Source of the DNA: a virus
Strand: one strand, 5' to 3'
Virus record (IMG/VR): IMGVR_UViG_3300035490_000050
Location: 72,455-136,454 of that record
DNA length: 64,000 nucleotides
Part shown: positions 17,081-31,499 of the stretch, piece by piece
Numbering within the stretch: the stretch's first letter is position 1
How the letters are laid out: each line of letters begins with the position of its first letter
Notes under the pieces: model-generated
Databases searched by the model: none
What the model saw: only the letters and a program-made list of their open reading frames with translations
What the model was told of the DNA's origin: nothing
Made by a program: the position numbers and the translations under genes

Positions 17081-17164
17081 ATGCGATTCCTATTATCCAG
17101 TTCGCGCTATTGCCTCTCATCGTTGCTGAGAGCAGGCTCGCCATATCTGGATAAAGGGATATAA
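17081..17164 (+). CDS. Leader peptide of tRNA array 1 (MRFLLSSSRYCLSSLLRAGSPYLDKGI)
   Basis: 27 aa between TTGACA (17042) and terminator; Leu/Ser/Tyr/Cys codons match downstream tRNAs. Confidence 0.8.
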   Translation: MRFLLSSSRYCLSSLLRAGSPYLDKGI

Positions 17165-20813: not shown

Positions 20814-20891
20814 GGGGTCACCGTCTAAATGGATTTGGATACCTGATTCTCACTCAGGAGATTGCGAGTTCGATCCTCGCTGACCCTACCA
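20814..20891 (+). tRNA. tRNA-Glu(CTC)
   Basis: Loop TT-CTC-AC, ACCA. Confidence 0.92.
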
Positions 20892-23115: not shown

Positions 23116-23196
23116 ATGAAGACGCGATTCCAAAACGCCAATCCAACAGCGACGGCAACGCCGCAGGGTCATGGTGCGGAATCAGGGTCTCAGTAG
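23116..23196 (+). CDS. Leader peptide of tRNA array 2 (MKTRFQNANPTATATPQGHGAESGSQ)
   Basis: Codons 3-21 all specify amino acids served by array 2 tRNAs. Confidence 0.82.
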   Translation: MKTRFQNANPTATATPQGHGAESGSQ

Positions 23197-23682: not shown

Positions 23683-23757
23683 GCTGCTGTGGCAGAGAGC
23701 TTATGCGCTGACCCCGTAAGTCAGAATACAAGGGTTGAAATCCCTTCGGCAGCTCCA
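23683..23757 (+). tRNA. tRNA-Thr(CGT), C33 variant
   Basis: Loop CC-CGT-AA, TCCA. Confidence 0.85.
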
Positions 23758-23782
23758 GAATGTGACGAAAGCGAGTAGGACG

Positions 23783-24328
23783 ATGAACTTACTGAAAAAA
23801 CCCGTACTTTTGCTCAACGCATCGTATGAGGCAATTCGCATAATTTCAGCAAAGAGATCGCTGACTCTCTTAACGAAAGGAAAAGTTGCGGTCGAACTTG
23901 CAACGGACAGGGAAGTTTATCCTGGCGTGTTTTTGCCTAGCGTTATCCGTCTTCTTGTCTACAAGCATGTTCCCGTCAGAATGCAGCAGATGACGCGCAA
24001 AAACCTGTACTTGAGAGACGGTTACAAATGTGGCTATTGCGGTGAGCAGTTTTCTGGAAGCGAACTGACTTTGGATCACATTATCCCAAAGGCGCAAGGT
24101 GGAAAGAACACGTATGAGAACTTGATTACCTGCTGCCGCAAGGATAACCATCGGAAAGCGGATCGGACGCCTCAACAGGCAGGAATGGTTTTGTTGAGAC
24201 GGCCTATCCCGGCAACGGTTCACACTGGTAGGCACATCATGCGTTCGCTAGGATTAGAAACGCAGGGATGGGCAAAATATCTTTGGGCTGATGCTGATGG
24301 TGAGCAGAGGTTAGTGGCAAGAGGATGA
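23783..24328 (+). CDS. HNH endonuclease (McrA-like) inside tRNA array
   Basis: VLLLNASYE, PSVIRL, RDGYKCGYCG, TLDHIIPKAQGG, NL..CC..NHRK..RTP. Confidence 0.92.
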   Translation: MNLLKKPVLLLNASYEAIRIISAKRSLTLLTKGKVAVELATDREVYPGVFLPSVIRLLVYKHVPVRMQQMTRKNLYLRDGYKCGYCGEQFSGSELTLDHIIPKAQGGKNTYENLITCCRKDNHRKADRTPQQAGMVLLRRPIPATVHTGRHIMRSLGLETQGWAKYLWADADGEQRLVARG

Positions 24329-25419: not shown

Positions 25420-25628
25420 TAAGATTTACCGCATGGGAGTGCGGAAACGAGTTTGGCTGACACTGGTTTCGTGGATACATGTTTTTGGGGATCATATCCC
25501 CACCCCCCGCCTAAGCCCTTTGGCAACGGAGGATTTAGGCGGGGGTTCTGAGGGCCGCAAGGCTGCTTAGAAAACAATTGCCCACAACCGACTTTCAGCC
25601 ACTATTTTTGTGCCTTGGGAGAGGGAAT

Positions 25629-26189
25629 ATGGCCAGCGGTGATCGTTTCTACATGCTATCCTTGCGCCATCGCCCTGCGGTGTACGGCGATCTCGGAAAC
25701 ATCCTCAAAATCGAAGGTTTGGTGGTAGGCGGAGAAGGGGCGCATGTAATTCTTACGCTTCCCTCTTCCGATCTAAAAACTGATACCTACTGGGATGCTA
25801 ATACATTCCCAGCAATTCATCAGTTATCCCTTGAGGAGTGGACCGATTTTCTAGCGCGTACTGACGATCCAGAAATTCTAATCGGTCAAGCGAAGGCTTT
25901 CCATCGCAAATGCCGTTATGAAATTTCAGGGGCGGTACAGCAGAAGATATGGGTAGCTGATGGTCTAAAGTGCATGTACTGCGGAGTCAGGATGGGCAGG
26001 GCACAACTCACAGTGGACCATTGGGAATCGCTTGAGGCTGGTGGAAAGAACGATAGCTCAAATTTTCTCGCAGCCTGCAAGACGTGTAATAAGGCCAAAG
26101 GTTCCATGCCGCCGCGTGACTGGTGCAGCCTTCGCAAAATTGATTACGACTTCTTTGTGGAGTATCTGAGAACGAGGAAGTTGCCTTAA
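25629..26189 (+). CDS. HNH endonuclease-domain protein
   Basis: DGLKCMYCG, LTVDH, GG....NFLAACKTCNKAKG. Confidence 0.85.
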   Translation: MASGDRFYMLSLRHRPAVYGDLGNILKIEGLVVGGEGAHVILTLPSSDLKTDTYWDANTFPAIHQLSLEEWTDFLARTDDPEILIGQAKAFHRKCRYEISGAVQQKIWVADGLKCMYCGVRMGRAQLTVDHWESLEAGGKNDSSNFLAACKTCNKAKGSMPPRDWCSLRKIDYDFFVEYLRTRKLP

Positions 26190-26217: not shown

Positions 26218-27711
26218 ATGGCAGAAACAGGGCTTACACGTCAAAGAATTTTGTCGGAATTGTCGAAGAGTCCACACGGCTCTTTGAAAGAGTATCTTCC
26301 TATCGGCAAACAGGCCGTTCAACAGGAAGGTGAATTTTATCAACACATGCTTGCCTGGGATAGGACGCATGGGCAGATTAGGGACAGCAAGGTTGCGCTT
26401 CCTGTGATCGGCTTGGCTTTTGAGAAGGATGAGGAATTACTCGACAACAGCCTTGCTCACATCGCTCTTTTGGGGCCGCGTGAACTGGCAAGAGCATATC
26501 GGTTTGGATTGGAGATTCGTCTCCCTGGCAAGATGCGTCAGTTGCGTAGGCTTGTCGAAGACTACCTACACCAAAAGGAGCAAGACAAAGGTTGGGATCA
26601 TCTGGCAATCCAGCACAGGGGTACGCTGAAGGAACTCTACTCTCTGGCGCACGCAAAGCCTGAAAAGGAGAGAACCAACGTCGTTCTCTATGGCAGGAAC
26701 TTCGACAAGACAAAGGCACCGCTGCCCAAGGGATCAGTCTTTGAGGTAGTAGCAAACCTCAAGAACATGAGTCCTACGGAGGCTGCTGGTTCGATCATGA
26801 AGTACCGGATTCCTTTCCTTATCGCCATGGGCGCGTTAGGCGCAAAGGCGAAGGAGCCGGATTTGGTACTGGCTTTGATCGGAGCCATGTCTGCAACGGA
26901 GTTGACCACGAACGTCAAGATGCTGGAGAAGTTGGGCCTGAAGACGAATCCTGCGCTGCGTGGGGCATTCGACAACGCATTGGCTAAGGCGGCTACGTCG
27001 AAGAAGAATACGCTCAAGACGACTCAGGCGGTCGAGGCCGTACAGGACGAGGGATTGAAGGAGAAGCTCCGTGGACTACAGGCAAAGCAGATAGCGGCTG
27101 CGGGTGGTCCAGACGGCGACTGGGTAATTTTAGTTGACAAATCTGGATCGATGCACCATGCAATCGAAACTGGTTGCCATGTTGCAGGGGCGCTCACACA
27201 GTTCGTCAAAGGAAAGGTTGGGTTGATTTTCTTCGATACCTCTCCTATGGCGGTGGACGTAACCGGCTTGTCGCTGGACCAAATCAAGAAGGCGACACGA
27301 CACTTCACAGCGAACGGTGGAACATCCATCGGCTGCGGTCTGAATCGGATGCTGGTAGAGAAAGTTGCTGTGGATGGAATTGTGATCGTGTCGGACGGTG
27401 GAGACAACACTGCTCCACTATTCCATGACGTATATCCGAAGTACGCGAAATTCTGCGATAAGGATGTGCCGGTGTATTTCTACCAACTTAGCGGAGAATC
27501 GGACAAGCTGACGCCGAACATGCAACGGGCAGGAATCGAGATGACAACATTCGATTTGCGCGGTTCAAAGCTGGACTACTACAGCATTCCGAACACGGTC
27601 AAGACGCTTCGCAGTAACCAGTACAGTTTGGTTGAGGAAATACTCTCGACCCCGCTTTTAACCCTCAACACCGTGCTCAAGGGAGCGCAGAAAGGACTGG
27701 TGACAGTCTAA
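26218..27711 (+). CDS. TROVE/Ro60-like protein with C-terminal VWA domain
   Basis: Helical N-terminal domain (IRDSK.ALP, LKELY..AH.KP, MSATEL..N...LEK.G), MIDAS VDKSGSM, GGTSIG, IVIVSDGGDN; adjacent Y-like RNAs. Confidence 0.78.
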   Translation: MAETGLTRQRILSELSKSPHGSLKEYLPIGKQAVQQEGEFYQHMLAWDRTHGQIRDSKVALPVIGLAFEKDEELLDNSLAHIALLGPRELARAYRFGLEIRLPGKMRQLRRLVEDYLHQKEQDKGWDHLAIQHRGTLKELYSLAHAKPEKERTNVVLYGRNFDKTKAPLPKGSVFEVVANLKNMSPTEAAGSIMKYRIPFLIAMGALGAKAKEPDLVLALIGAMSATELTTNVKMLEKLGLKTNPALRGAFDNALAKAATSKKNTLKTTQAVEAVQDEGLKEKLRGLQAKQIAAAGGPDGDWVILVDKSGSMHHAIETGCHVAGALTQFVKGKVGLIFFDTSPMAVDVTGLSLDQIKKATRHFTANGGTSIGCGLNRMLVEKVAVDGIVIVSDGGDNTAPLFHDVYPKYAKFCDKDVPVYFYQLSGESDKLTPNMQRAGIEMTTFDLRGSKLDYYSIPNTVKTLRSNQYSLVEEILSTPLLTLNTVLKGAQKGLVTV

Positions 27712-28010
27712 TGAATATCAACGCACTGAAGAACTTCAACGCCGACCGTATGGACTTGGATGACATGGTAGGCTTGCTTGCGGACTGCAAGGCACTCCGC
27801 GCTGAGTACGAGGCGCTCCAGATCGAAGAGCCTGAGTATATCGACACAACCATCAAGGCAATTCGCCGGGAGATCACATCCCGCAACGCTGACAAGATCG
27901 CGGCTCGTAAGCGTGAGCTTGCCGCACGGATCGACAGCCTCAAGACTCCTGCACAGAAGAAGGCAGAACTTGAGAAGGAGCTTGCCAAGTTGGAAGCCGT
28001 TCCTGTCTAA
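27711..28010 (+). CDS. Small coiled-coil protein coupled to TROVE gene
   Basis: TAATG overlap; charged helical sequence. Confidence 0.7.
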   Translation: MNINALKNFNADRMDLDDMVGLLADCKALRAEYEALQIEEPEYIDTTIKAIRREITSRNADKIAARKRELAARIDSLKTPAQKKAELEKELAKLEAVPV

Positions 28011-28031
28011 CCCATCAACCATTTGAGCGAA

Positions 28032-28062
28032 GGGGCACAGGATAACGTGCCCCACTTTTTTC
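28032..28062 (+). terminator. Intrinsic terminator of TROVE operon
   Basis: GGGGCAC-aggataac-GTGCCCC then T-tract. Confidence 0.8.
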
Positions 28063-28064
28063 TC

Positions 28065-28093
28065 TTGCATTCCTAATCGACCTGGGGTACAGT
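28065..28093 (+). promoter_or_regulatory. sigma70-type promoter of tRNA array 3
   Basis: TTGCAT-17-TACAGT; GTG 7 nt later. Confidence 0.78.
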
Positions 28094-28100
28094 TTCTATA

Positions 28101-28184
28101 GTGATGAAGAGGATCATTGGTATCACCTCTTTTCTGTTCGCCCACCCCCTTCGGCTCTCCCAAGTGTCCGGGGATGTAGGCTAA
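28101..28184 (+). CDS. Leader ORF A of tRNA array 3 (MMKRIIGITSFLFAHPLRLSQVSGDVG)
   Basis: Starts at predicted TSS; stop overlaps RBS of leader B. Confidence 0.6.
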   Translation: MMKRIIGITSFLFAHPLRLSQVSGDVG

Positions 28185-28191
28185 GGAAAAC

Positions 28192-28278
28192 ATGCAGACG
28201 ACCACCAGACGCGGGACCATAACCAGAATGACCAAGCGGGTCATTTGGGGAATAGTGCGCGAGGGTTGGGACGATTAA
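28192..28278 (+). CDS. Leader peptide B of tRNA array 3 (MQTTTRRGTITRMTKRVIWGIVREGWDD)
   Basis: AAGGA RBS; codons 3-23 only T,R,G,I,M,K,V,W, the amino acids of array 3. Confidence 0.8.
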   Translation: MQTTTRRGTITRMTKRVIWGIVREGWDD

Positions 28279-28302
28279 ATCTGCAAAAAGATTGAATCTA
28301 CC

Positions 28303-28328
28303 AGCCCGGTCTTAGGATCGGGCTTTTT
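28303..28328 (+). terminator. Attenuator terminator before tRNA array 3
   Basis: AGCCCGGTC-ttag-GATCGGGCT-TTTT; CCAGCCC can pair instead with GGGTTGG 28263-28269. Confidence 0.8.
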
Positions 28329-28357
28329 GATGTTTGAAAACTGAAACGAATAATCAT

Positions 28358-28432
28358 GCCTCGTTAAGCTAGTTGGGAAACTGTCGGTCTCCAAAGCCGA
28401 ACTCAGGGGTTCAAATCCTCTACGGGGTGCCA
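28358..28432 (+). tRNA. tRNA-Trp(CCA)
   Basis: Loop CT-CCA-AA, GCCA. Confidence 0.9.
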
Positions 28433-28437
28433 TTTTT

Positions 28438-28515
28438 GCCAGTGTAGTTCAGTCGGCTTAGAACGCTGCATTCATAACGCAGAGGTCAACAGTTCAATCC
28501 TGTTCACTGGCACCA
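28438..28515 (+). tRNA. tRNA(CAT), elongator Met or Ile2
   Basis: Loop TT-CAT-AA, ACCA; identity not resolvable by eye. Confidence 0.88.
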
Positions 28516-28519
28516 AGTT

Positions 28520-28617
28520 GGAGCGGCGGCGCATAATTCACTGGCGGTATCGGACAGCTAAGACTACCGAGACGTGCAGAACTCACCGAAAGGTTAGCCG
28601 TTGCAGTGGGCCGCTCC
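28520..28617 (+). ncRNA. Unassigned structured RNA inside array 3
   Basis: GGAGCGGC/GCCGCTCC closing stem, CGGTA/TACCG and ACC-gaaa-GGT hairpins. Confidence 0.5.
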
Positions 28618-28677
28618 GAAAGTTCACGGCTGTAAAGCCTATACCGATGGCGCAAGGCCATCCTGCCGTGATTAAGT

Positions 28678-28700
28678 TTCGAGTCCTAGTGGGGGCACCA
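28678..28700 (+). pseudogene. Orphan tRNA 3' fragment
   Basis: TTCGAGTCCTAGTGGGGGCACCA with no matching 5' half. Confidence 0.55.
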
Positions 28701-28704
28701 TAGT

Positions 28705-28791
28705 GGAACCGTGGCCTAGTCTGGTTTTGGGCACCCGGCTCTTACCCGGCGCAGAAATGCAACGCAGGTTCAAATCCTGCCGGTTCCACCA
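28705..28791 (+). tRNA. tRNA-Lys(CTT) with long variable arm
   Basis: Loop CT-CTT-AC; V-arm GCA-gaaa-TGC; ACCA. Confidence 0.88.
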
Positions 28792-28801
28792 ACACTTTTA
28801 C

Positions 28802-28887
28802 GGAGTCGTACTCGAATTGGATGCAGAGACCTGACTTTTAATCAGCGGGGTAACCCAATGGGGGTTCGAGTCCCCCCGGCTCCACCA
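28802..28887 (+). tRNA. tRNA-Lys(TTT) with long variable arm
   Basis: Loop CT-TTT-AA; V-arm GGG-gtaa-CCC; ACCA. Confidence 0.88.
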
Positions 28888-28892
28888 GTTAC

Positions 28893-28969
28893 GCGGCGGT
28901 ATTCCCCTCGTCTTCTAAACGAGTAAGGATAATTGGAATATGTGAGTTCGATCCTCACCCGCTGCTCCA
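28893..28969 (+). tRNA. Non-canonical tRNA-Arg(TCT), D-arm relocated
   Basis: Acceptor, anticodon (CT-TCT-AA) and T arms intact; 7-nt linker instead of D arm; 18-nt variable region. Confidence 0.75.
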
Positions 28970-28973
28970 TTTT

Positions 28974-29050
28974 GGTCCCGTACCGGCCATGTTTCCTAAA
29001 CATGTAACCGTAAGTGGATGATGTCAGTTCGAGCCTGACCGGGACTTCCA
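28974..29050 (+). tRNA. Non-canonical tRNA-Arg(CCT), D-arm relocated
   Basis: Same geometry; loop TT-CCT-AA. Confidence 0.75.
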
Positions 29051-29054
29051 TTTT

Positions 29055-29131
29055 GCTGCCGTACCAGCCGCGCCTCCGAAGCGCGATACTGTAACTGAAT
29101 GATGCAGGTTTGAGTCCTGTCGGCAGCGCCA
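29055..29131 (+). tRNA. Non-canonical tRNA-Arg(CCG), D-arm relocated
   Basis: Same geometry; loop CT-CCG-AA. Confidence 0.75.
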
Positions 29132-29136
29132 GTTTT

Positions 29137-29214
29137 GGGAACGTGGGCCAGCGGCGACGCCACCTGTCCTACAAACAGGTATTACCGGAAGTTCGAGTCT
29201 TCCCGTTCCCACCA
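29137..29214 (+). tRNA. tRNA-Val(TAC), C33 variant
   Basis: Loop CC-TAC-AA, ACCA. Confidence 0.88.
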
Positions 29215-29290
29215 AGTTCGGAGTCCTACGGTTAGAAGCCGTGGGAGGTTACAACGAGCAGATGCAACACCTGCTACTCTGGGATGATTT

Positions 29291-29364
29291 GCCGATGTAG
29301 CTCAGTGATAGAGTGCCGCACTGGTATTGCGGTGACGAGGGTTTGATTCCCTCCTTCGGCCCCA
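29291..29364 (+). tRNA. tRNA-Thr(GGT)
   Basis: Loop CT-GGT-AT, CCA. Confidence 0.88.
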
Positions 29365-29365
29365 T

Positions 29366-29443
29366 GGCGGTCTAGCTCACATTGAGAAGAGCGCAGTCCT
29401 GATAAGACTGAGGCACCCAGTTCAATTCTGGGGACCGCCACCA
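29366..29443 (+). tRNA. tRNA-Ile(GAT)
   Basis: Loop CT-GAT-AA, ACCA. Confidence 0.92.
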
Positions 29444-29449
29444 TAGTTT

Positions 29450-29525
29450 GCGGGAGTAACTCAGCGGCTAGAGTGTCAGCCTTCCAAGCTGTTCGTCGAG
29501 GGTTCGAGTCCCTTCTCCCGCTCCA
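29450..29525 (+). tRNA. tRNA-Gly(TCC)
   Basis: Loop CT-TCC-AA, TCCA. Confidence 0.95.
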
Positions 29526-30250: not shown

Positions 30251-30531
30251 TGAGCCTCCAGAAGTTTCCTGTATTTCTTTTCTTCCTCTGCGCCGTGGAT
30301 TACCCGAATCGTTTTCATGCAATCCTCGTATCGACCAGGAGTTCCTTCCCATGTTTTGTCATCGTCTGCGCGTTGAACTTTCTCTTCCGATCCCTTCGGT
30401 CCAAGATCGTATTCGTCCACACAATACTTGACCGCTTCTTCTCTTGTGGCGTTGTACATAACGAAATGGTCTACGGGGTCGGAGAAAGCTGCATACTTAC
30501 CGTTGGGGGTCTTGACTATCCTGTGGGCCAT
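30247..30531 (-). CDS. Hypothetical protein
   Basis: TAATG coupling to ligase. Confidence 0.65.
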   Translation of the reverse strand: MAHRIVKTPNGKYAAFSDPVDHFVMYNATREEAVKYCVDEYDLGPKGSEEKVQRADDDKTWEGTPGRYEDCMKTIRVIHGAEEEKKYRKLLEAQ

Positions 30532-31499
30532 TACGACTTCTCCATATAACTGTTGCCCACGAGCTTCAAGTGGACCCGTCCAAGGTGTTCATGTATGCGC
30601 TCAGGTAAAGGCCGTACTACGATTCCTTCGCGGATATGGTTTGCGCCAGGAATTAGGCTAGGACCGTCAGATAACTTTACAAGCATATTAAAGTCGAACG
30701 GACCACCAAAGACGACAGGAACTCGCTTCTCTTCGGATAAATGAGCGGTCCAGTCATCGTATTCTCTCCATTCCCCGTTATGAAGCACATCGAAAGCGCG
30801 GAAGAAAACATCGTTGGGTTTAGCTCCGTACTTGAGGCTCTGCACGTTTCCGAAGACTTCCCCATAGAGAATATCGCTAGGAAACTTACGGCAGAATTCC
30901 TCAATCCACGGATGCTTTTCTAGCGCTCTCCACCATAGATTCCCCTCGTTCTTTGCCTTCCACTCGCCACGGCTACCGCAGTACATCCGGTTCTCTTCTG
31001 GCGCATAGACGAACCTGCTATTGGCTCCGTGAATCTTCTCGGTCGCAACGACCGGCTCCCCTTCCACGAATAGACTCTTGTAGCGGTACATTGACTCTAC
31101 GTCGTACTTTGGAGCGTAAAGGCCGATAGGACCACCTTCCACTTCACCGCAGCGCTCTCCGGGGATTGGAGGCTCGTAGTGAGTTACTCCGTAGTATTCA
31201 GCAACGTCATCCCCTTCCTGTGCGCCTTCGGGCGCTGGCATAAGCAGCCCCATAGAAACTACGCCGCGCAACTTCTTGACCTTGATGCGCTCGTGCCCTA
31301 CCAGAAAATCGAACTCAGGACGTGTCGAGTCCACAACAGAATCAGGTTGAATGTAAGCAGCCAATTGGCCGTCAACAAATGATCCTTTGAGGACGCAGCA
31401 AGTGAATCCGAATATACGGGCAACGTCAAGCCTTTCCGCGTTGCCGTGGGGTTCAATTTTCACTCGCACAACTTCTACCTTATGCGTCTGCTCTGCCAT
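30531..31499 (-). CDS. ATP-dependent RNA ligase, DRB0094/Rnl5 type
   Basis: N-terminal OB (IEPHGNAERL, KLRGVVSMGL), motif I TEKIHG, LYGEVFG, AFDV, REGIVV, LKL. Confidence 0.92.
   Translation of the reverse strand: MAEQTHKVEVVRVKIEPHGNAERLDVARIFGFTCCVLKGSFVDGQLAAYIQPDSVVDSTRPEFDFLVGHERIKVKKLRGVVSMGLLMPAPEGAQEGDDVAEYYGVTHYEPPIPGERCGEVEGGPIGLYAPKYDVESMYRYKSLFVEGEPVVATEKIHGANSRFVYAPEENRMYCGSRGEWKAKNEGNLWWRALEKHPWIEEFCRKFPSDILYGEVFGNVQSLKYGAKPNDVFFRAFDVLHNGEWREYDDWTAHLSEEKRVPVVFGGPFDFNMLVKLSDGPSLIPGANHIREGIVVRPLPERIHEHLGRVHLKLVGNSYMEKS

What the first reader, a model, noticed from the sequence alone, without database searches (positions are those of the whole stretch)
28065..28328. Attenuator 3 uses two tandem leader ORFs
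Seen: leaderless ORF A begins ATG AAG AGG ATC ATT GGT ATC ACC (supplying AGG, absent from B), and its TAA overlaps the SD of ORF B (ACC x5, AGA x2, ATA x2, ATG, AAG, CGG, ATT, TGG, GGA, GTG). GGGTTGG(28263)/CCAGCCC(28301) with inner helices forms the antiterminator. Inference: translational coupling extends the sensing range; stalling in A could starve B of ribosomes. AAA is not present.
Basis: partly seen in the sequence, partly recalled or inferred. Interest (0 to 1): 0.8.

Follow-up and report, generated by a model that had tools for sequence, protein, structure and literature searches.

The report
Leader-peptide attenuator gating phage tRNA genes
A tiny gene written in the codons that the next block of phage tRNA genes reads, wired to a switchable transcription stop, probably lets the phage make those tRNAs only when ribosomes run short of them; the second small gene in front of it is a recent insertion with no sign of being part of the design.

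Summary
ORF B (28192-28278), the antiterminator and the terminator (28303-28324 plus a T-run) form a real, conserved unit. An exact 21-base core of ORF B occurs in 104 metagenome stretches, and I hold 78 distinct variants.

- **Context:** 72 of the 74 variants with enough flank are followed by the same tRNA array: Trp, Met/Ile-tat, Lys x2, Arg x3, Val, Thr, Ile, Gly.
- **Terminator:** 74 of 74 examined carry a hairpin plus T-run.
- **Codon match:** 23 of 27 ORF B codons use its own array's amino acids (P 3e-6). Its run of 21 ranks first of 436 small ORFs in the window.

ORF A is different. It lies in a 92-base insertion (28100-28191). Seven variants with the same -10 box have that promoter directly before ORF B's ATG. 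No fetched relative holds ORF A, and its overall codon match is at chance (12 of 25, P 0.31).

So Attenuator 3 is supported, and "two tandem leader ORFs" is not. Eight literature searches found no account of leader-peptide attenuation of tRNA genes. This scan has already noted the same kind of device on other phage DNA.

The parts
28032..28062 (+). Intrinsic terminator of the upstream 99-aa gene. It isolates the unit from upstream transcription.
   Evidence: Terminator scan. Folds at -15.1 kcal/mol, z -4.6, 0 of 200 shuffles as good.
28065..28093 (+). Sigma-70-like promoter: TTGCAT (28065-28070), 17 nt, TACAGT (28088-28093).
   Evidence: Read. The same -35/-10 pair (TTGCAT or TTGCAA, 17 nt, TACAGT) lies 6 nt before the leader ATG in 7 relatives: L035, L045, L049, L060, L079, L095, L104. 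The consensus scan did not list it. No transcription start was measured.
28100..28191 (+). Lineage-specific 92-nt insertion between the promoter and the ancestral leader ATG. It supplies the AAGGA Shine-Dalgarno of ORF B (28183-28187).
   Evidence: Comparison with L104, L035 and others, where TACAGT plus 6 nt is followed directly by ATG CAG ACG ACC. No look-alike in any held locus (all E above 1) or in IMG/VR (0 matches).
28104..28184 (+). ORF A, 26 codons (MKRIIGITSFLFAHPLRLSQVSGDVG), with an alternative GTG start at 28101. Not conserved; role unproven.
   Evidence: Overall codon match at chance (12 of 25, P 0.31). N-terminal run of 7-8 (3 of 436 small ORFs). Its 5' hairpin folds at -7.5 kcal/mol, z -0.17.
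28192..28278 (+). ORF B, the conserved leader peptide (MQTTTRRGTITRMTKRVIWGIVREGWDD). Codons 3-23 are drawn only from the amino acids of the downstream array.
   Evidence: for statistics. for 78 variants with the core ATA ACC AGA ATG ACC AAG CGG GTC ATT TGG GGA.
28226..28246 (+). Hairpin inside the leader ORF (GAATGACC, loop AAGCG, GGTCATTT). Possibly an RNA polymerase pause or synchronising hairpin (inferred).
   Evidence: Folds at -12.7 kcal/mol, z -4.0, 0 of 200 shuffles as good. Relative L005 has CCATC-AAGCG-GATGG, which still pairs (read by eye).
28263..28307 (+). Antiterminator: GGGTTGG (28263-28269) pairs with CCAGCCC (28301-28307), around inner helices 28273-28276/28295-28298 and 28278-28282/28289-28293.
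   Evidence: Folds at -20.2 kcal/mol, z -4.1. It is the minimum-energy fold of the nascent RNA up to 28311. The equivalent pairing forms in 94.4% of cells across 56 relatives, against 36-49% when slid.
28303..28329 (+). Intrinsic terminator: 9-bp stem 28303-28311/28316-28324, loop TTAG, then TTTTT. It shares 28303-28307 with the antiterminator.
   Evidence: -16.4 kcal/mol, z -4.0. A hairpin plus T-run is present in 74 of 74 relatives examined. The helix shows compensatory changes: 13 cells, 0 of 500 shuffles reach this.
28358..29525 (+). Regulated tRNA array: Trp(cca), Met(cat), Lys(ctt), Lys(ttt), three atypical Arg-like elements (tct, cct, ccg; 28891-29133), Val(tac), Thr(ggt), Ile(gat), Gly(tcc).
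   Evidence: ARAGORN and Rfam. The Arg-like elements were read by alignment to the Arg tRNAs of relative L009; neither ARAGORN nor the Rfam tRNA model at E up to 1 recognises them. Only 28 nt separate the T-run from tRNA-Trp.

Best explanation
ORF B with its antiterminator and terminator is a ribosome-mediated (leader-peptide) transcription attenuator. It gates the phage's third tRNA array.

Transcription starts at the promoter at 28065-28093. A ribosome translates ORF B, whose codons 3-23 sample the isoacceptors encoded downstream: ACC, AGA, ATA, ATG, AAG, CGG, ATT, TGG, GGA and GTG.

- **Supply adequate.** The ribosome runs on to the end of ORF B and covers GGGTTGG (28263-28269). CCAGCCC is then free to join the terminator hairpin, and transcription stops at about 28329.
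- **Supply short.** If any sampled tRNA is scarce, cleaved or uncharged, the ribosome stalls further upstream. GGGTTGG pairs with CCAGCCC, the terminator cannot form, and RNA polymerase runs into tRNA-Trp and the rest of the array.

The tRNA products relieve the stall, which gives negative feedback.

ORF A is a by-product of a lineage-specific 92-nt insertion. That insertion turned an ancestrally leaderless leader into a Shine-Dalgarno-led one. ORF A may be translated, but it is not part of the conserved mechanism.

Shown here: the sequence anatomy, the codon match, conservation, the fold energies and the insertion. Inferred: translation of ORF B, the transcription start, the direction of the switch, and the response to tRNA supply.
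For: **1. Codon match in the window.**
- 23 of 27 ORF B codons match its own array at amino-acid level (P 3.2e-6), against 0 of 27 for array A and 15 of 27 for array B.
- The run of 21 ranks 1 of 436 small ORFs.
- 10 of 11 array anticodons are covered.

**2. The two sister units behave the same way.** Leader A matches array A in 15 of 26 codons and leader B matches array B in 21 of 25. Each ranks 1 of 436 for its own amino-acid set. Their relatives keep the composition while the order of residues changes.

**3. The family.**
- The exact 21-mer occurs in 104 metagenome stretches, in 9 IMG/VR loci and in 14 MAG contigs.
- There are 78 distinct variants. All are open in the same frame, and indels come in whole codons.
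- 72 of 74 variants with 200 nt or more of flank are followed by a tRNA array. In 53, the first detected tRNA is Trp(cca), within 110 nt of the stop codon.

**4. Codons outside the fixed 21-mer are nearly invariant.** ATA is found in 70 of 74, AGA in 64 (AGG in 5), ATG in 69, AAA in 55 at one column, and GTG in 60. Synonymous changes are rare, as expected if codons rather than residues are selected.

**5. Terminator and antiterminator.**
- A terminator is present in 74 of 74, with compensatory changes.
- Antiterminator complementarity forms in 94.4% of cells, against 36-49% when slid.
- Its 5' strand always sits at the stop codon: +3 to +9 in most variants, -8 to -16 in the window's class.

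**6. Window fold energies** have z about -4 for the antiterminator, the terminator and the core hairpin.

**7. No room for another promoter.** The T-run and tRNA-Trp are 28 nt apart here, and the first tRNA starts 64-100 nt after the stop codon in relatives. The upstream gene has its own terminator.

**8. ORF A is an insertion**.
Against: - There is no expression or read-through measurement of any kind.
- The antiterminator helix is conserved rather than covarying. No pair in its main helix changes on both sides, and the shuffle measures are not exceeded.
- My control that shuffled the upstream segment paired the C-rich terminator arm about as often as the real sequences did: 1246 of 1710 shuffles against 52 of 57 real. 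Only the energy differed, -21.4 against -16.2 kcal/mol with sd 3.0.
- At equilibrium the full transcript folds into the terminator under every ribosome mask I tried. The switch must therefore be kinetic, which I cannot test.
- The peptide core ITRMTKRVIWG is more conserved than a pure codon checklist needs. A functional peptide, or the embedded hairpin, could contribute.
- The variants come from related environmental phages and were found with an exact 21-mer, so they are not independent and the core is fixed by how they were found.
- Codon-level match in the window is only 16 of 27 (P 4e-4). ATA has no detected tRNA here, and the Arg elements are atypical.
- ORF A does show a nominally unusual N-terminal run and covers 9 of 11 anticodons. 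A role for it is therefore not excluded.
Confidence: 0.72

Rival explanations
1. ORF A and ORF B are two coupled leader ORFs. ORF A, leaderless or nearly so, senses further codons (AGG, ATC, GGT). Its terminating ribosomes feed ORF B, so stalling in A lowers translation of B and raises read-through.
For: - ORF A starts at the place, relative to the -10 box, where relatives start the leaderless leader.
- Its TAA overlaps ORF B's Shine-Dalgarno sequence.
- Its first 7-8 codons all come from the array's amino-acid set; only 3 of 436 small ORFs have such a run.
- It covers 9 of 11 array anticodons, and A plus B cover 11 of 11.
- A second long-leader lineage (L089, L094) begins with in-frame codons RRWITT, and its 2 differences are both synonymous.
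- In the nascent RNA, ORF A's CGCCCAC region pairs with the antiterminator's 5' strand.
Against: - ORF A is absent from the closest relative and from all 77 other variants. IMG/VR holds no match.
- Its overall codon match is at chance (P 0.31).
- Codons 9-26 are mostly Ser, Phe, Leu, Pro, His and Ala.
- AGG is rarely present in the family's leaders although tRNA-Arg(cct) is common in their arrays.
- ORF B has its own Shine-Dalgarno sequence, left unpaired in the predicted fold.
- The start would have a 3-4 nt leader and no Shine-Dalgarno sequence.
- The statistics for its N-terminus are post hoc.
Confidence: 0.15
2. ORF B encodes a small basic peptide with a function of its own, and the hairpin at 28303-28324 is simply its terminator. 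The tRNA array is then expressed by constitutive leak-through, without sensing.
For: - The peptide core ITRMTKRVIWG is strongly conserved.
- The unit has its own promoter and terminator.
Against: - The leaders of arrays A and B have unrelated peptides, each built from its own array's amino acids, and their relatives keep the composition while the residue order changes.
- Substitutions are rarely synonymous, which points to selection on codons or RNA rather than on the protein.
- The stop codon is always placed on or beside the strand that competes with the terminator.
- The array has no other promoter.
Confidence: 0.08
3. Both ORFs are chance frames in a structured spacer or small-RNA gene that lies between two terminators.
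For: - Small ORFs are common: 436 of 20-40 codons in the window.
- ORF A alone is compatible with this reading.
Against: - ORF B is an extreme outlier in codon content.
- Its frame is kept open in 78 variants, with whole-codon indels.
Confidence: 0.02

Closest known systems
Multivalent leader-peptide attenuators of enterobacterial amino-acid operons (thr leader sensing Thr and Ile; ilv leaders sensing Ile, Leu and Val; also trp and his). Recalled knowledge; PMC1183508 seen only as a search listing with the start of its abstract.
   Same: Promoter-proximal short ORF rich in regulatory codons, an intrinsic terminator, and an alternative hairpin that takes the terminator's 5' arm. A ribosome stalled on hungry codons favours read-through. 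Several amino acids are sensed by one leader.
   Different: The regulated genes are tRNA genes, not biosynthetic enzymes, so the product acts directly on the sensor. The leader carries roughly one codon for each of about 10 isoacceptors rather than runs of one or two amino acids. It is phage-borne. Many family members are leaderless. No clear 1:2 protector pairing was found.
Rfam RF00513 Trp_leader
   Same: A weak match over 28261-28331: GGUUGG, then a spacer, then a GC-rich terminator with a U-tract. The first gene downstream is tRNA-Trp.
   Different: It scores 24 bits against a gathering score of 41 (E 0.013). Only the terminator half aligns. There are no tandem Trp codons. This is a resemblance of design, not membership.
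pheM leader controlling pheST in E. coli
   Same: Leader-peptide attenuation applied to a gene of the translation apparatus, sensing charged tRNA.
   Different: It senses one amino acid and regulates a synthetase, not tRNA genes.
Anabaena sp. PCC 7120 trn operon, a long tRNA array induced under translational stress (PMC8421152, passages read; PMC10272220, listing abstract and term search)
   Same: An accessory tRNA array that is silent by default and switched on when translation is impaired. An RNA ligase gene is associated with such arrays; here an RNA ligase gene lies at 30531-31499.
   Different: Regulation there is by direct repeats at the promoter and the repressor TrcR. The terms 'leader peptide' and 'attenuat' occur 0 times in both papers.
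Salmonella mgtCBR leader with two short ORFs (tandem attenuators). PMC3641672, search listing and start of abstract only.
   Same: Two short ORFs in one leader, each proposed to steer RNA structure and transcription into the operon.
   Different: In the window the second ORF (A) is not conserved and has no alternative structure of its own that exceeds chance.
Codon-matched leader attenuators noted by this scan on other phage genomes (AI notes, not publications)
   Same: Same layout: promoter, an ORF of about 25 codons written in the array's amino acids, a switchable terminator, then a tRNA block.
   Different: Those are other genomes and other leader sequences. I checked none of them here.

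Membership tests
Ribosome-mediated (leader-peptide) transcription attenuator | Short ORF directly after the promoter and before the first regulated gene | tested here: met
   ORF B is at 28192-28278, between the promoter at 28065-28093 and tRNA-Trp at 28358. In 18 of 77 variants the -10 box ends 6-7 nt before the start codon.
Ribosome-mediated (leader-peptide) transcription attenuator | Regulatory codons cognate to what the operon supplies | tested here: met
   23 of 27 codons match, P 3.2e-6. The run of 21 ranks 1 of 436. 10 of 11 anticodons are covered.
Ribosome-mediated (leader-peptide) transcription attenuator | Intrinsic terminator between the leader ORF and the first gene | tested here: met
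   Window: (-16.4 kcal/mol, z -4.0). Family: 74 of 74, with 13 compensatory cells and 0 of 500 shuffles reaching that.
Ribosome-mediated (leader-peptide) transcription attenuator | Alternative hairpin that is mutually exclusive with the terminator | tested here: met
   Window: -20.2 kcal/mol, z -4.1, sharing 28303-28307 with the terminator. Family: 94.4% of cells paired, against 36-49% when slid.
Ribosome-mediated (leader-peptide) transcription attenuator | Covariation proving the antiterminator helix | tested here: inconclusive
   No pair of the main helix changes on both sides. One-sided U:G to U:A changes occur in 13 sequences. The shuffle measures are not exceeded. The shuffled-upstream control does not discriminate.
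Ribosome-mediated (leader-peptide) transcription attenuator | Stop codon placed so that a terminating ribosome masks the antiterminator's 5' strand | tested here: met
   The partner of the terminator's 5' arm lies at +3 to +9 from the stop codon in most variants, and at -8 to -16 in the window's class. The footprint size is recalled knowledge.
Ribosome-mediated (leader-peptide) transcription attenuator | Protector (1:2) or pause hairpin that synchronises polymerase and ribosome | tested here: inconclusive
   The hairpin at 28226-28246 folds at -12.7 kcal/mol, z -4.0, and is kept in L005 with changed letters. Its role cannot be tested here.
Ribosome-mediated (leader-peptide) transcription attenuator | Read-through rises when the cognate charged tRNA is scarce | not testable with these tools
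   This needs reporters, 3'-end mapping or in vitro coupled transcription-translation.
Rfam RF00513 Trp_leader | Score at or above the family's gathering score | tested here: not met
   24 bits against 41, E 0.013. No hit at the gathering threshold.
   ORF A's segment has no look-alike in any held locus or in IMG/VR. The closest relatives lack the 92-nt insertion.
   Overall 12 of 25, P 0.31. An N-terminal run of 7 or more occurs in 3 of 436 small ORFs. It covers 9 of 11 anticodons, P 0.033.

The most novel reading that the evidence does not exclude
In this lineage the 92-nt insertion created a working second sensor. ORF A, started at or near the 5' end of the transcript, samples AGG, ATC, ATT, GGT and ACC, and passes its ribosomes to ORF B by termination-reinitiation at TAA-AAGGA-ATG. 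The attenuator would then integrate two checklists in series and cover all 11 isoacceptors of the array. It would be a two-stage, translationally coupled tRNA-supply gauge that evolved recently from a one-ORF leaderless ancestor.
Probability: 0.15. Interest if true: 0.8.

Novelty: new variant of a known kind. Interest (0 to 1): 0.72.

Why it matters
Leader-peptide attenuation is textbook for amino-acid operons. In eight full-text searches I found no account of it controlling tRNA genes.

Here the sensor reads, codon by codon, the isoacceptors that the operon makes. A phage could therefore top up, or replace, exactly the tRNAs that the host lacks or has destroyed, and stop when supply is restored. 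That bears on two open questions: why large phages carry tRNA arrays, and how they answer tRNA-cleaving host defences.

It also offers a compact natural gauge of the supply of about ten isoacceptors at once.

The family of 78 variants shows the device changing its initiation mode (leaderless, short leader, or a long leader with a Shine-Dalgarno sequence) while keeping the checklist. This gives ready-made natural mutants for testing.

Tried and rejected
- **DNA search of 27700-28900 against cultured and deposited phages:** no match. tblastn with the neighbouring 497-aa gene gave only 2 distant records, 32% and 25% identity. There is no cultured relative to lean on.
- **The 18-base gapped pattern in IMG/VR:** 16 stretches. 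Seven (L011, L015, L017, L019, L020, L022, L025) lie inside unrelated coding regions. I dropped them as chance matches.
- **Promoter 17-mer in IMG/VR:** 3 stretches. One is the L005 contig again, and two (L028, L029) are unrelated AT-rich DNA, which I dropped.
- **Look-alikes of the ORF A insertion:** blastn-short against all held loci gave only 11-16 nt matches with E above 1. A 21-mer in IMG/VR gave 0 matches. The tools note that records of the window's own genome or of one very near it may be left out.
- **Is ORF A's head a degenerate copy of ORF B's core (KRIIGIT against KRVIWGIV)?** The local alignment score is not above shuffles: 1070 of 2000 and 229 of 2000 shuffles do as well. Rejected as unsupported.
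- **ORF A's 5' hairpin as an extra terminator:** -7.5 kcal/mol, z -0.17. Rejected.
- **Shuffled-upstream control for the antiterminator:** it did not discriminate. I do not use "the arm is paired" as evidence; I use position and energy only.
- **Equilibrium folds with ribosome masks:** all of them kept the terminator, so they say nothing about the kinetic switch.
- **Rfam:** only a sub-threshold Trp_leader hit, and nothing for the ORF A segment.
- **Sequencing runs, contigs only.**
  - RNA-library contigs of X17 and X18 hold the upstream gene, pieces of relatives' leaders, and 28424-28604 without a difference.
  - They do not cover 28046-28168.
  - Contigs cannot show starts, ends or strand, and DNA may be present in RNA libraries. 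I draw no conclusion on transcription or on ORF A from this.
- **A separate promoter for the array:** the only candidate (TTGATG, 16 nt, AATAAT, 28327-28354) would start inside tRNA-Trp. Rejected.
- **Supplements:** supplementary files of papers were not consulted. The supplements of PMC8421152 (promoter mapping) could hold detail on that operon's leader that I did not see.
Full report
**What is there**

The window is part of a 136,454-bp IMG/VR virus record. It carries 31 ARAGORN tRNA genes in three main arrays. HNH endonuclease genes, a VWA/Ro60-like gene (26218-27711) and an RNA ligase gene (30531-31499) lie among or near them.

The finding lies between the terminator of a 99-aa gene (28032-28053 plus a T-run) and tRNA-Trp (28358). 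In order, it contains:

- a sigma-70-like promoter, TTGCAT (28065-28070), 17 nt, TACAGT (28088-28093);
- ORF A (ATG 28104 to TAA 28184);
- AAGGA (28183-28187);
- ORF B (28192-28278);
- a strand GGGTTGG (28263-28269) that can pair with CCAGCCC (28301-28307);
- a 9-bp terminator hairpin (28303-28324) followed by TTTTT.

**Is it more than chance?**

ORF B clearly is.
- Leaving out start and stop, 23 of its 27 codons encode amino acids served by the array behind it (G, I, K, M, R, T, V, W). The background frequency is 0.41, so binomial P is 3.2e-6.
- The same codons match array A in 0 of 27 and array B in 15 of 27.
- If the three atypical Arg-like elements are not counted, the figure is 18 of 27.
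- At codon level with simple wobble rules it is 16 of 27 (P 4e-4).
- Codons 3-23 form an unbroken run of 21. Among the 436 ORFs of 20-40 codons in the window, the next longest run for this set is 13.
- ORF B holds a cognate codon for 10 of the 11 array anticodons. In simulation P is 0.005, and 3 of 436 small ORFs reach 10.

Leader A (17081-17164) matches array A in 15 of 26 codons, and leader B (23116-23196) matches array B in 21 of 25. Each ranks first of 436 for its own set.

ORF A does not stand out overall.
- It matches in 12 of 25 codons (P 0.31).
- Only its first 7-8 codons are unusual: 3 of 436 small ORFs have such an N-terminal run.
- It touches 9 of 11 anticodons (P 0.033).

**Relatives**

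The neighbouring Ro60-like protein retrieved 9 IMG/VR loci at 65-78% identity, with the same tRNA arrays. Upstream of their third array lies a homologue of ORF B in the same frame.

An exact 21-mer from ORF B's core occurs in 104 metagenome stretches. It also occurs in 14 contigs of MAGs labelled Acidobacteriaceae or Terracidiphilus. A looser pattern gave 16 IMG/VR stretches, of which 9 belong to the family and 7 are chance matches that I dropped.

Over -60 to +120 around the core I hold 78 distinct variants.
- All are open in the same frame and end 3-9 codons after the core, apart from 4 cut by contig ends.
- Of the 74 with at least 200 nt after the stop codon, 72 are followed by a same-strand tRNA array.
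- In 53, the first tRNA that ARAGORN finds is Trp(cca), within 110 nt.
- In the other 19 the first detected tRNA lies 153-612 nt away.
- The usual array is Trp, (Met), Ile(tat), Lys(ctt), Lys(ttt), Arg(tct), Arg(cct), Arg(ccg), Val(tac), Thr(ggt), Ile(gat), Gly(tcc).

The usual leader reads ATG CAG CAG ACC TTC AAA CAC xxx ATA ACC AGA ATG ACC AAG CGG GTC ATT TGG GGA GTC GTG TCT/TGT TGA. Outside the 21 bases fixed by my search, ATA is kept in 70 of 74, AGA in 64 (AGG in 5), ATG in 69, AAA in 55 and GTG in 60.

This amounts to about one Watson-Crick or wobble cognate for each isoacceptor of the array, except Arg(cct). Synonymous changes are rare. That pattern fits selection on codons, or on RNA, rather than on the peptide.

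Two caveats apply. The variants are related environmental phages, and the core is fixed by the way they were found.

**ORF A is an insertion**

Seven variants share the window's -10 box: L035, L045, L049, L060, L079, L095 and L104. L104 also has a near-identical terminator. In all seven the -10 box is followed after 6 nt by ATG CAG ACG..., so the leader is leaderless or nearly so.

In 18 of 77 variants the -10 box ends 6-7 nt before the start codon. The majority class has a leader of about 19 nt.

The window instead has 92 extra bases (28100-28191) exactly at that junction. They hold ORF A and end in the AAGGA that now serves ORF B.

- No held locus has a look-alike of these 92 bases, and a 21-mer from them has no match in IMG/VR.
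- A DNA contig of an independent run (X4, 812 nt) is identical over 28050-28861. The arrangement is therefore not an assembly accident of one sample, but the contig adds no variation.
- Other lineages (L005, L036/L081, L089, L094, L102, L108, L126) carry different 60-100 nt inserts at the same place. All end in an AAGGA-like Shine-Dalgarno sequence, and they share no codon-matched upstream ORF.
- One of them (L089, L094) does begin with in-frame RRWITT. I therefore leave the two-ORF idea at about 15%.
- AGG, which ORF A is said to supply, is the commonest codon in none of the tabulated leader columns. Yet tRNA-Arg(cct) is present in 43 of 51 well-covered arrays.

**Structure and likely mechanism**

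In the window the antiterminator (28259-28311) folds at -20.2 kcal/mol (z -4.1). The terminator folds at -16.4 kcal/mol (z -4.0). A hairpin inside ORF B (28226-28246) folds at -12.7 kcal/mol (z -4.0). ORF A's own hairpin is at chance, z -0.17.

The nascent RNA up to 28311 has the antiterminator as its minimum-energy fold. The full transcript always prefers the terminator at equilibrium, so the choice must be kinetic.

Across the family:
- A hairpin plus T-run is found in 74 of 74, and its stem shows 13 compensatory cells, which 0 of 500 shuffles reach.
- The proposed antiterminator is complementary in 94.4% of cells, against 36-49% when slid. It is conserved rather than covarying.
- A control that shuffled the upstream segment paired the C-rich arm about as often as the real sequences did.

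What is consistent is position. The strand that takes the terminator's 5' arm lies at +3 to +9 from the stop codon in most variants, and 8-16 nt before it in the window's class.

From the known size of a ribosome footprint (recalled), a ribosome that reaches the end of ORF B masks that strand, so the terminator forms. A ribosome stalled on the checklist codons leaves the strand free, so read-through follows. Only 28 nt separate the T-run from tRNA-Trp, and the upstream gene has its own terminator. The array therefore has no other evident promoter.

**Known systems and novelty**

The device works like the multivalent leader-peptide attenuators of amino-acid operons. Rfam's Trp_leader matches only weakly (24 bits against 41), so it is not a member of that family.

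Eight full-text searches found no paper on leader-peptide attenuation of tRNA genes. The nearest in print is the Anabaena trn array, which is induced by translational stress. It is controlled by promoter repeats and the repressor TrcR, and both papers lack the words 'leader peptide' and 'attenuat'.

This scan has noted the same kind of device on several other phage genomes. Those are unchecked AI notes, and I did not test them.

**Limits**

Nothing here measures transcription, translation or read-through. The transcription start, ORF A's translation and the direction of the switch are inferred. The RNA-library contigs are uninformative on these points.

Noticed in passing
window 28516-28704: 189 nt between tRNA-Met and tRNA-Lys(ctt) hold no tRNA for ARAGORN or Rfam, at the place where relatives carry tRNA-Ile(tat). 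The stretch ends in a T-arm-like sequence plus CCA. ORF B has two ATA codons but no detected cognate tRNA in this genome. An RNA-library contig (X18, 181 nt) covers 28424-28604 without a difference.
   Followed up: partly
window 28891-29133: Three tRNA-like elements of about 77-80 nt have anticodon loops reading TCT, CCT and CCG. Each has a T-arm and CCA but no D-arm, and carries a long insert after the anticodon arm. They sit where relatives have canonical tRNA-Arg genes. The Rfam tRNA model at E up to 1 does not recognise them; one weak tRNA-Sec hit scores 22.5 bits.
   Followed up: partly
L134-L147 (genome contigs): 14 MAG contigs labelled Acidobacteriaceae or Terracidiphilus hold the leader's exact 21-base core, and 12 show the tRNA array after it. 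Two of the contigs are about 1 Mb long. This is a lead to the host, and possibly to an integrated or co-binned form of these phages.
   Followed up: partly
L005, L036/L081, L094, L102, L108 (60-100 nt before the leader ATG): Several lineages share a different, mutually similar long-leader insert. It contains GGCTAG(A/G)GCGGG.AACCCCTCGA..AAGGA and, in some, a short ORF (MARAGNPS...) that stops 1-5 nt before the leader ATG. Its function is unknown.
   Followed up: partly
L089 and L094, just after the -10 TACAGT: The long leader begins with an in-frame stretch encoding RRWITTLPRRF, rich in the array's amino acids. It is continuous with the leader ORF in L089 and closed by a stop codon in L094. 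The 2 differences between the two loci are both synonymous.
   Followed up: partly
window 17081-17164 and 23116-23196, and relatives L002, L003, L005, L009: The sister leaders A and B are also conserved in relatives, with reordered but compositionally matched peptides. Leaders B and C share a GGGTCT motif at or near the stop codon (just before it in the window's leader B), which hints at a common origin.
   Followed up: partly
window 28330-28357 and the same place in relatives: A conserved TTTGACAA or TTTGAAAA motif follows the terminator's T-run and lies 5-25 nt before tRNA-Trp. It is too close to the tRNA to act as the -35 box of a promoter for it. Its role is unknown.
   Followed up: no
window 26218-27711, 25578-26189, 23735-24328, 30531-31499: A VWA/CoxE-like gene that matches the PHROG 'RNA-binding protein' family (Ro60-like), two HNH endonuclease genes among the tRNA arrays, and an RNA ligase gene on the opposite strand. 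Together they suggest a tRNA-maintenance neighbourhood.
   Followed up: no
window 20814-20888: Rfam finds a tRNA here (46.6 bits) that ARAGORN did not list.
   Followed up: no
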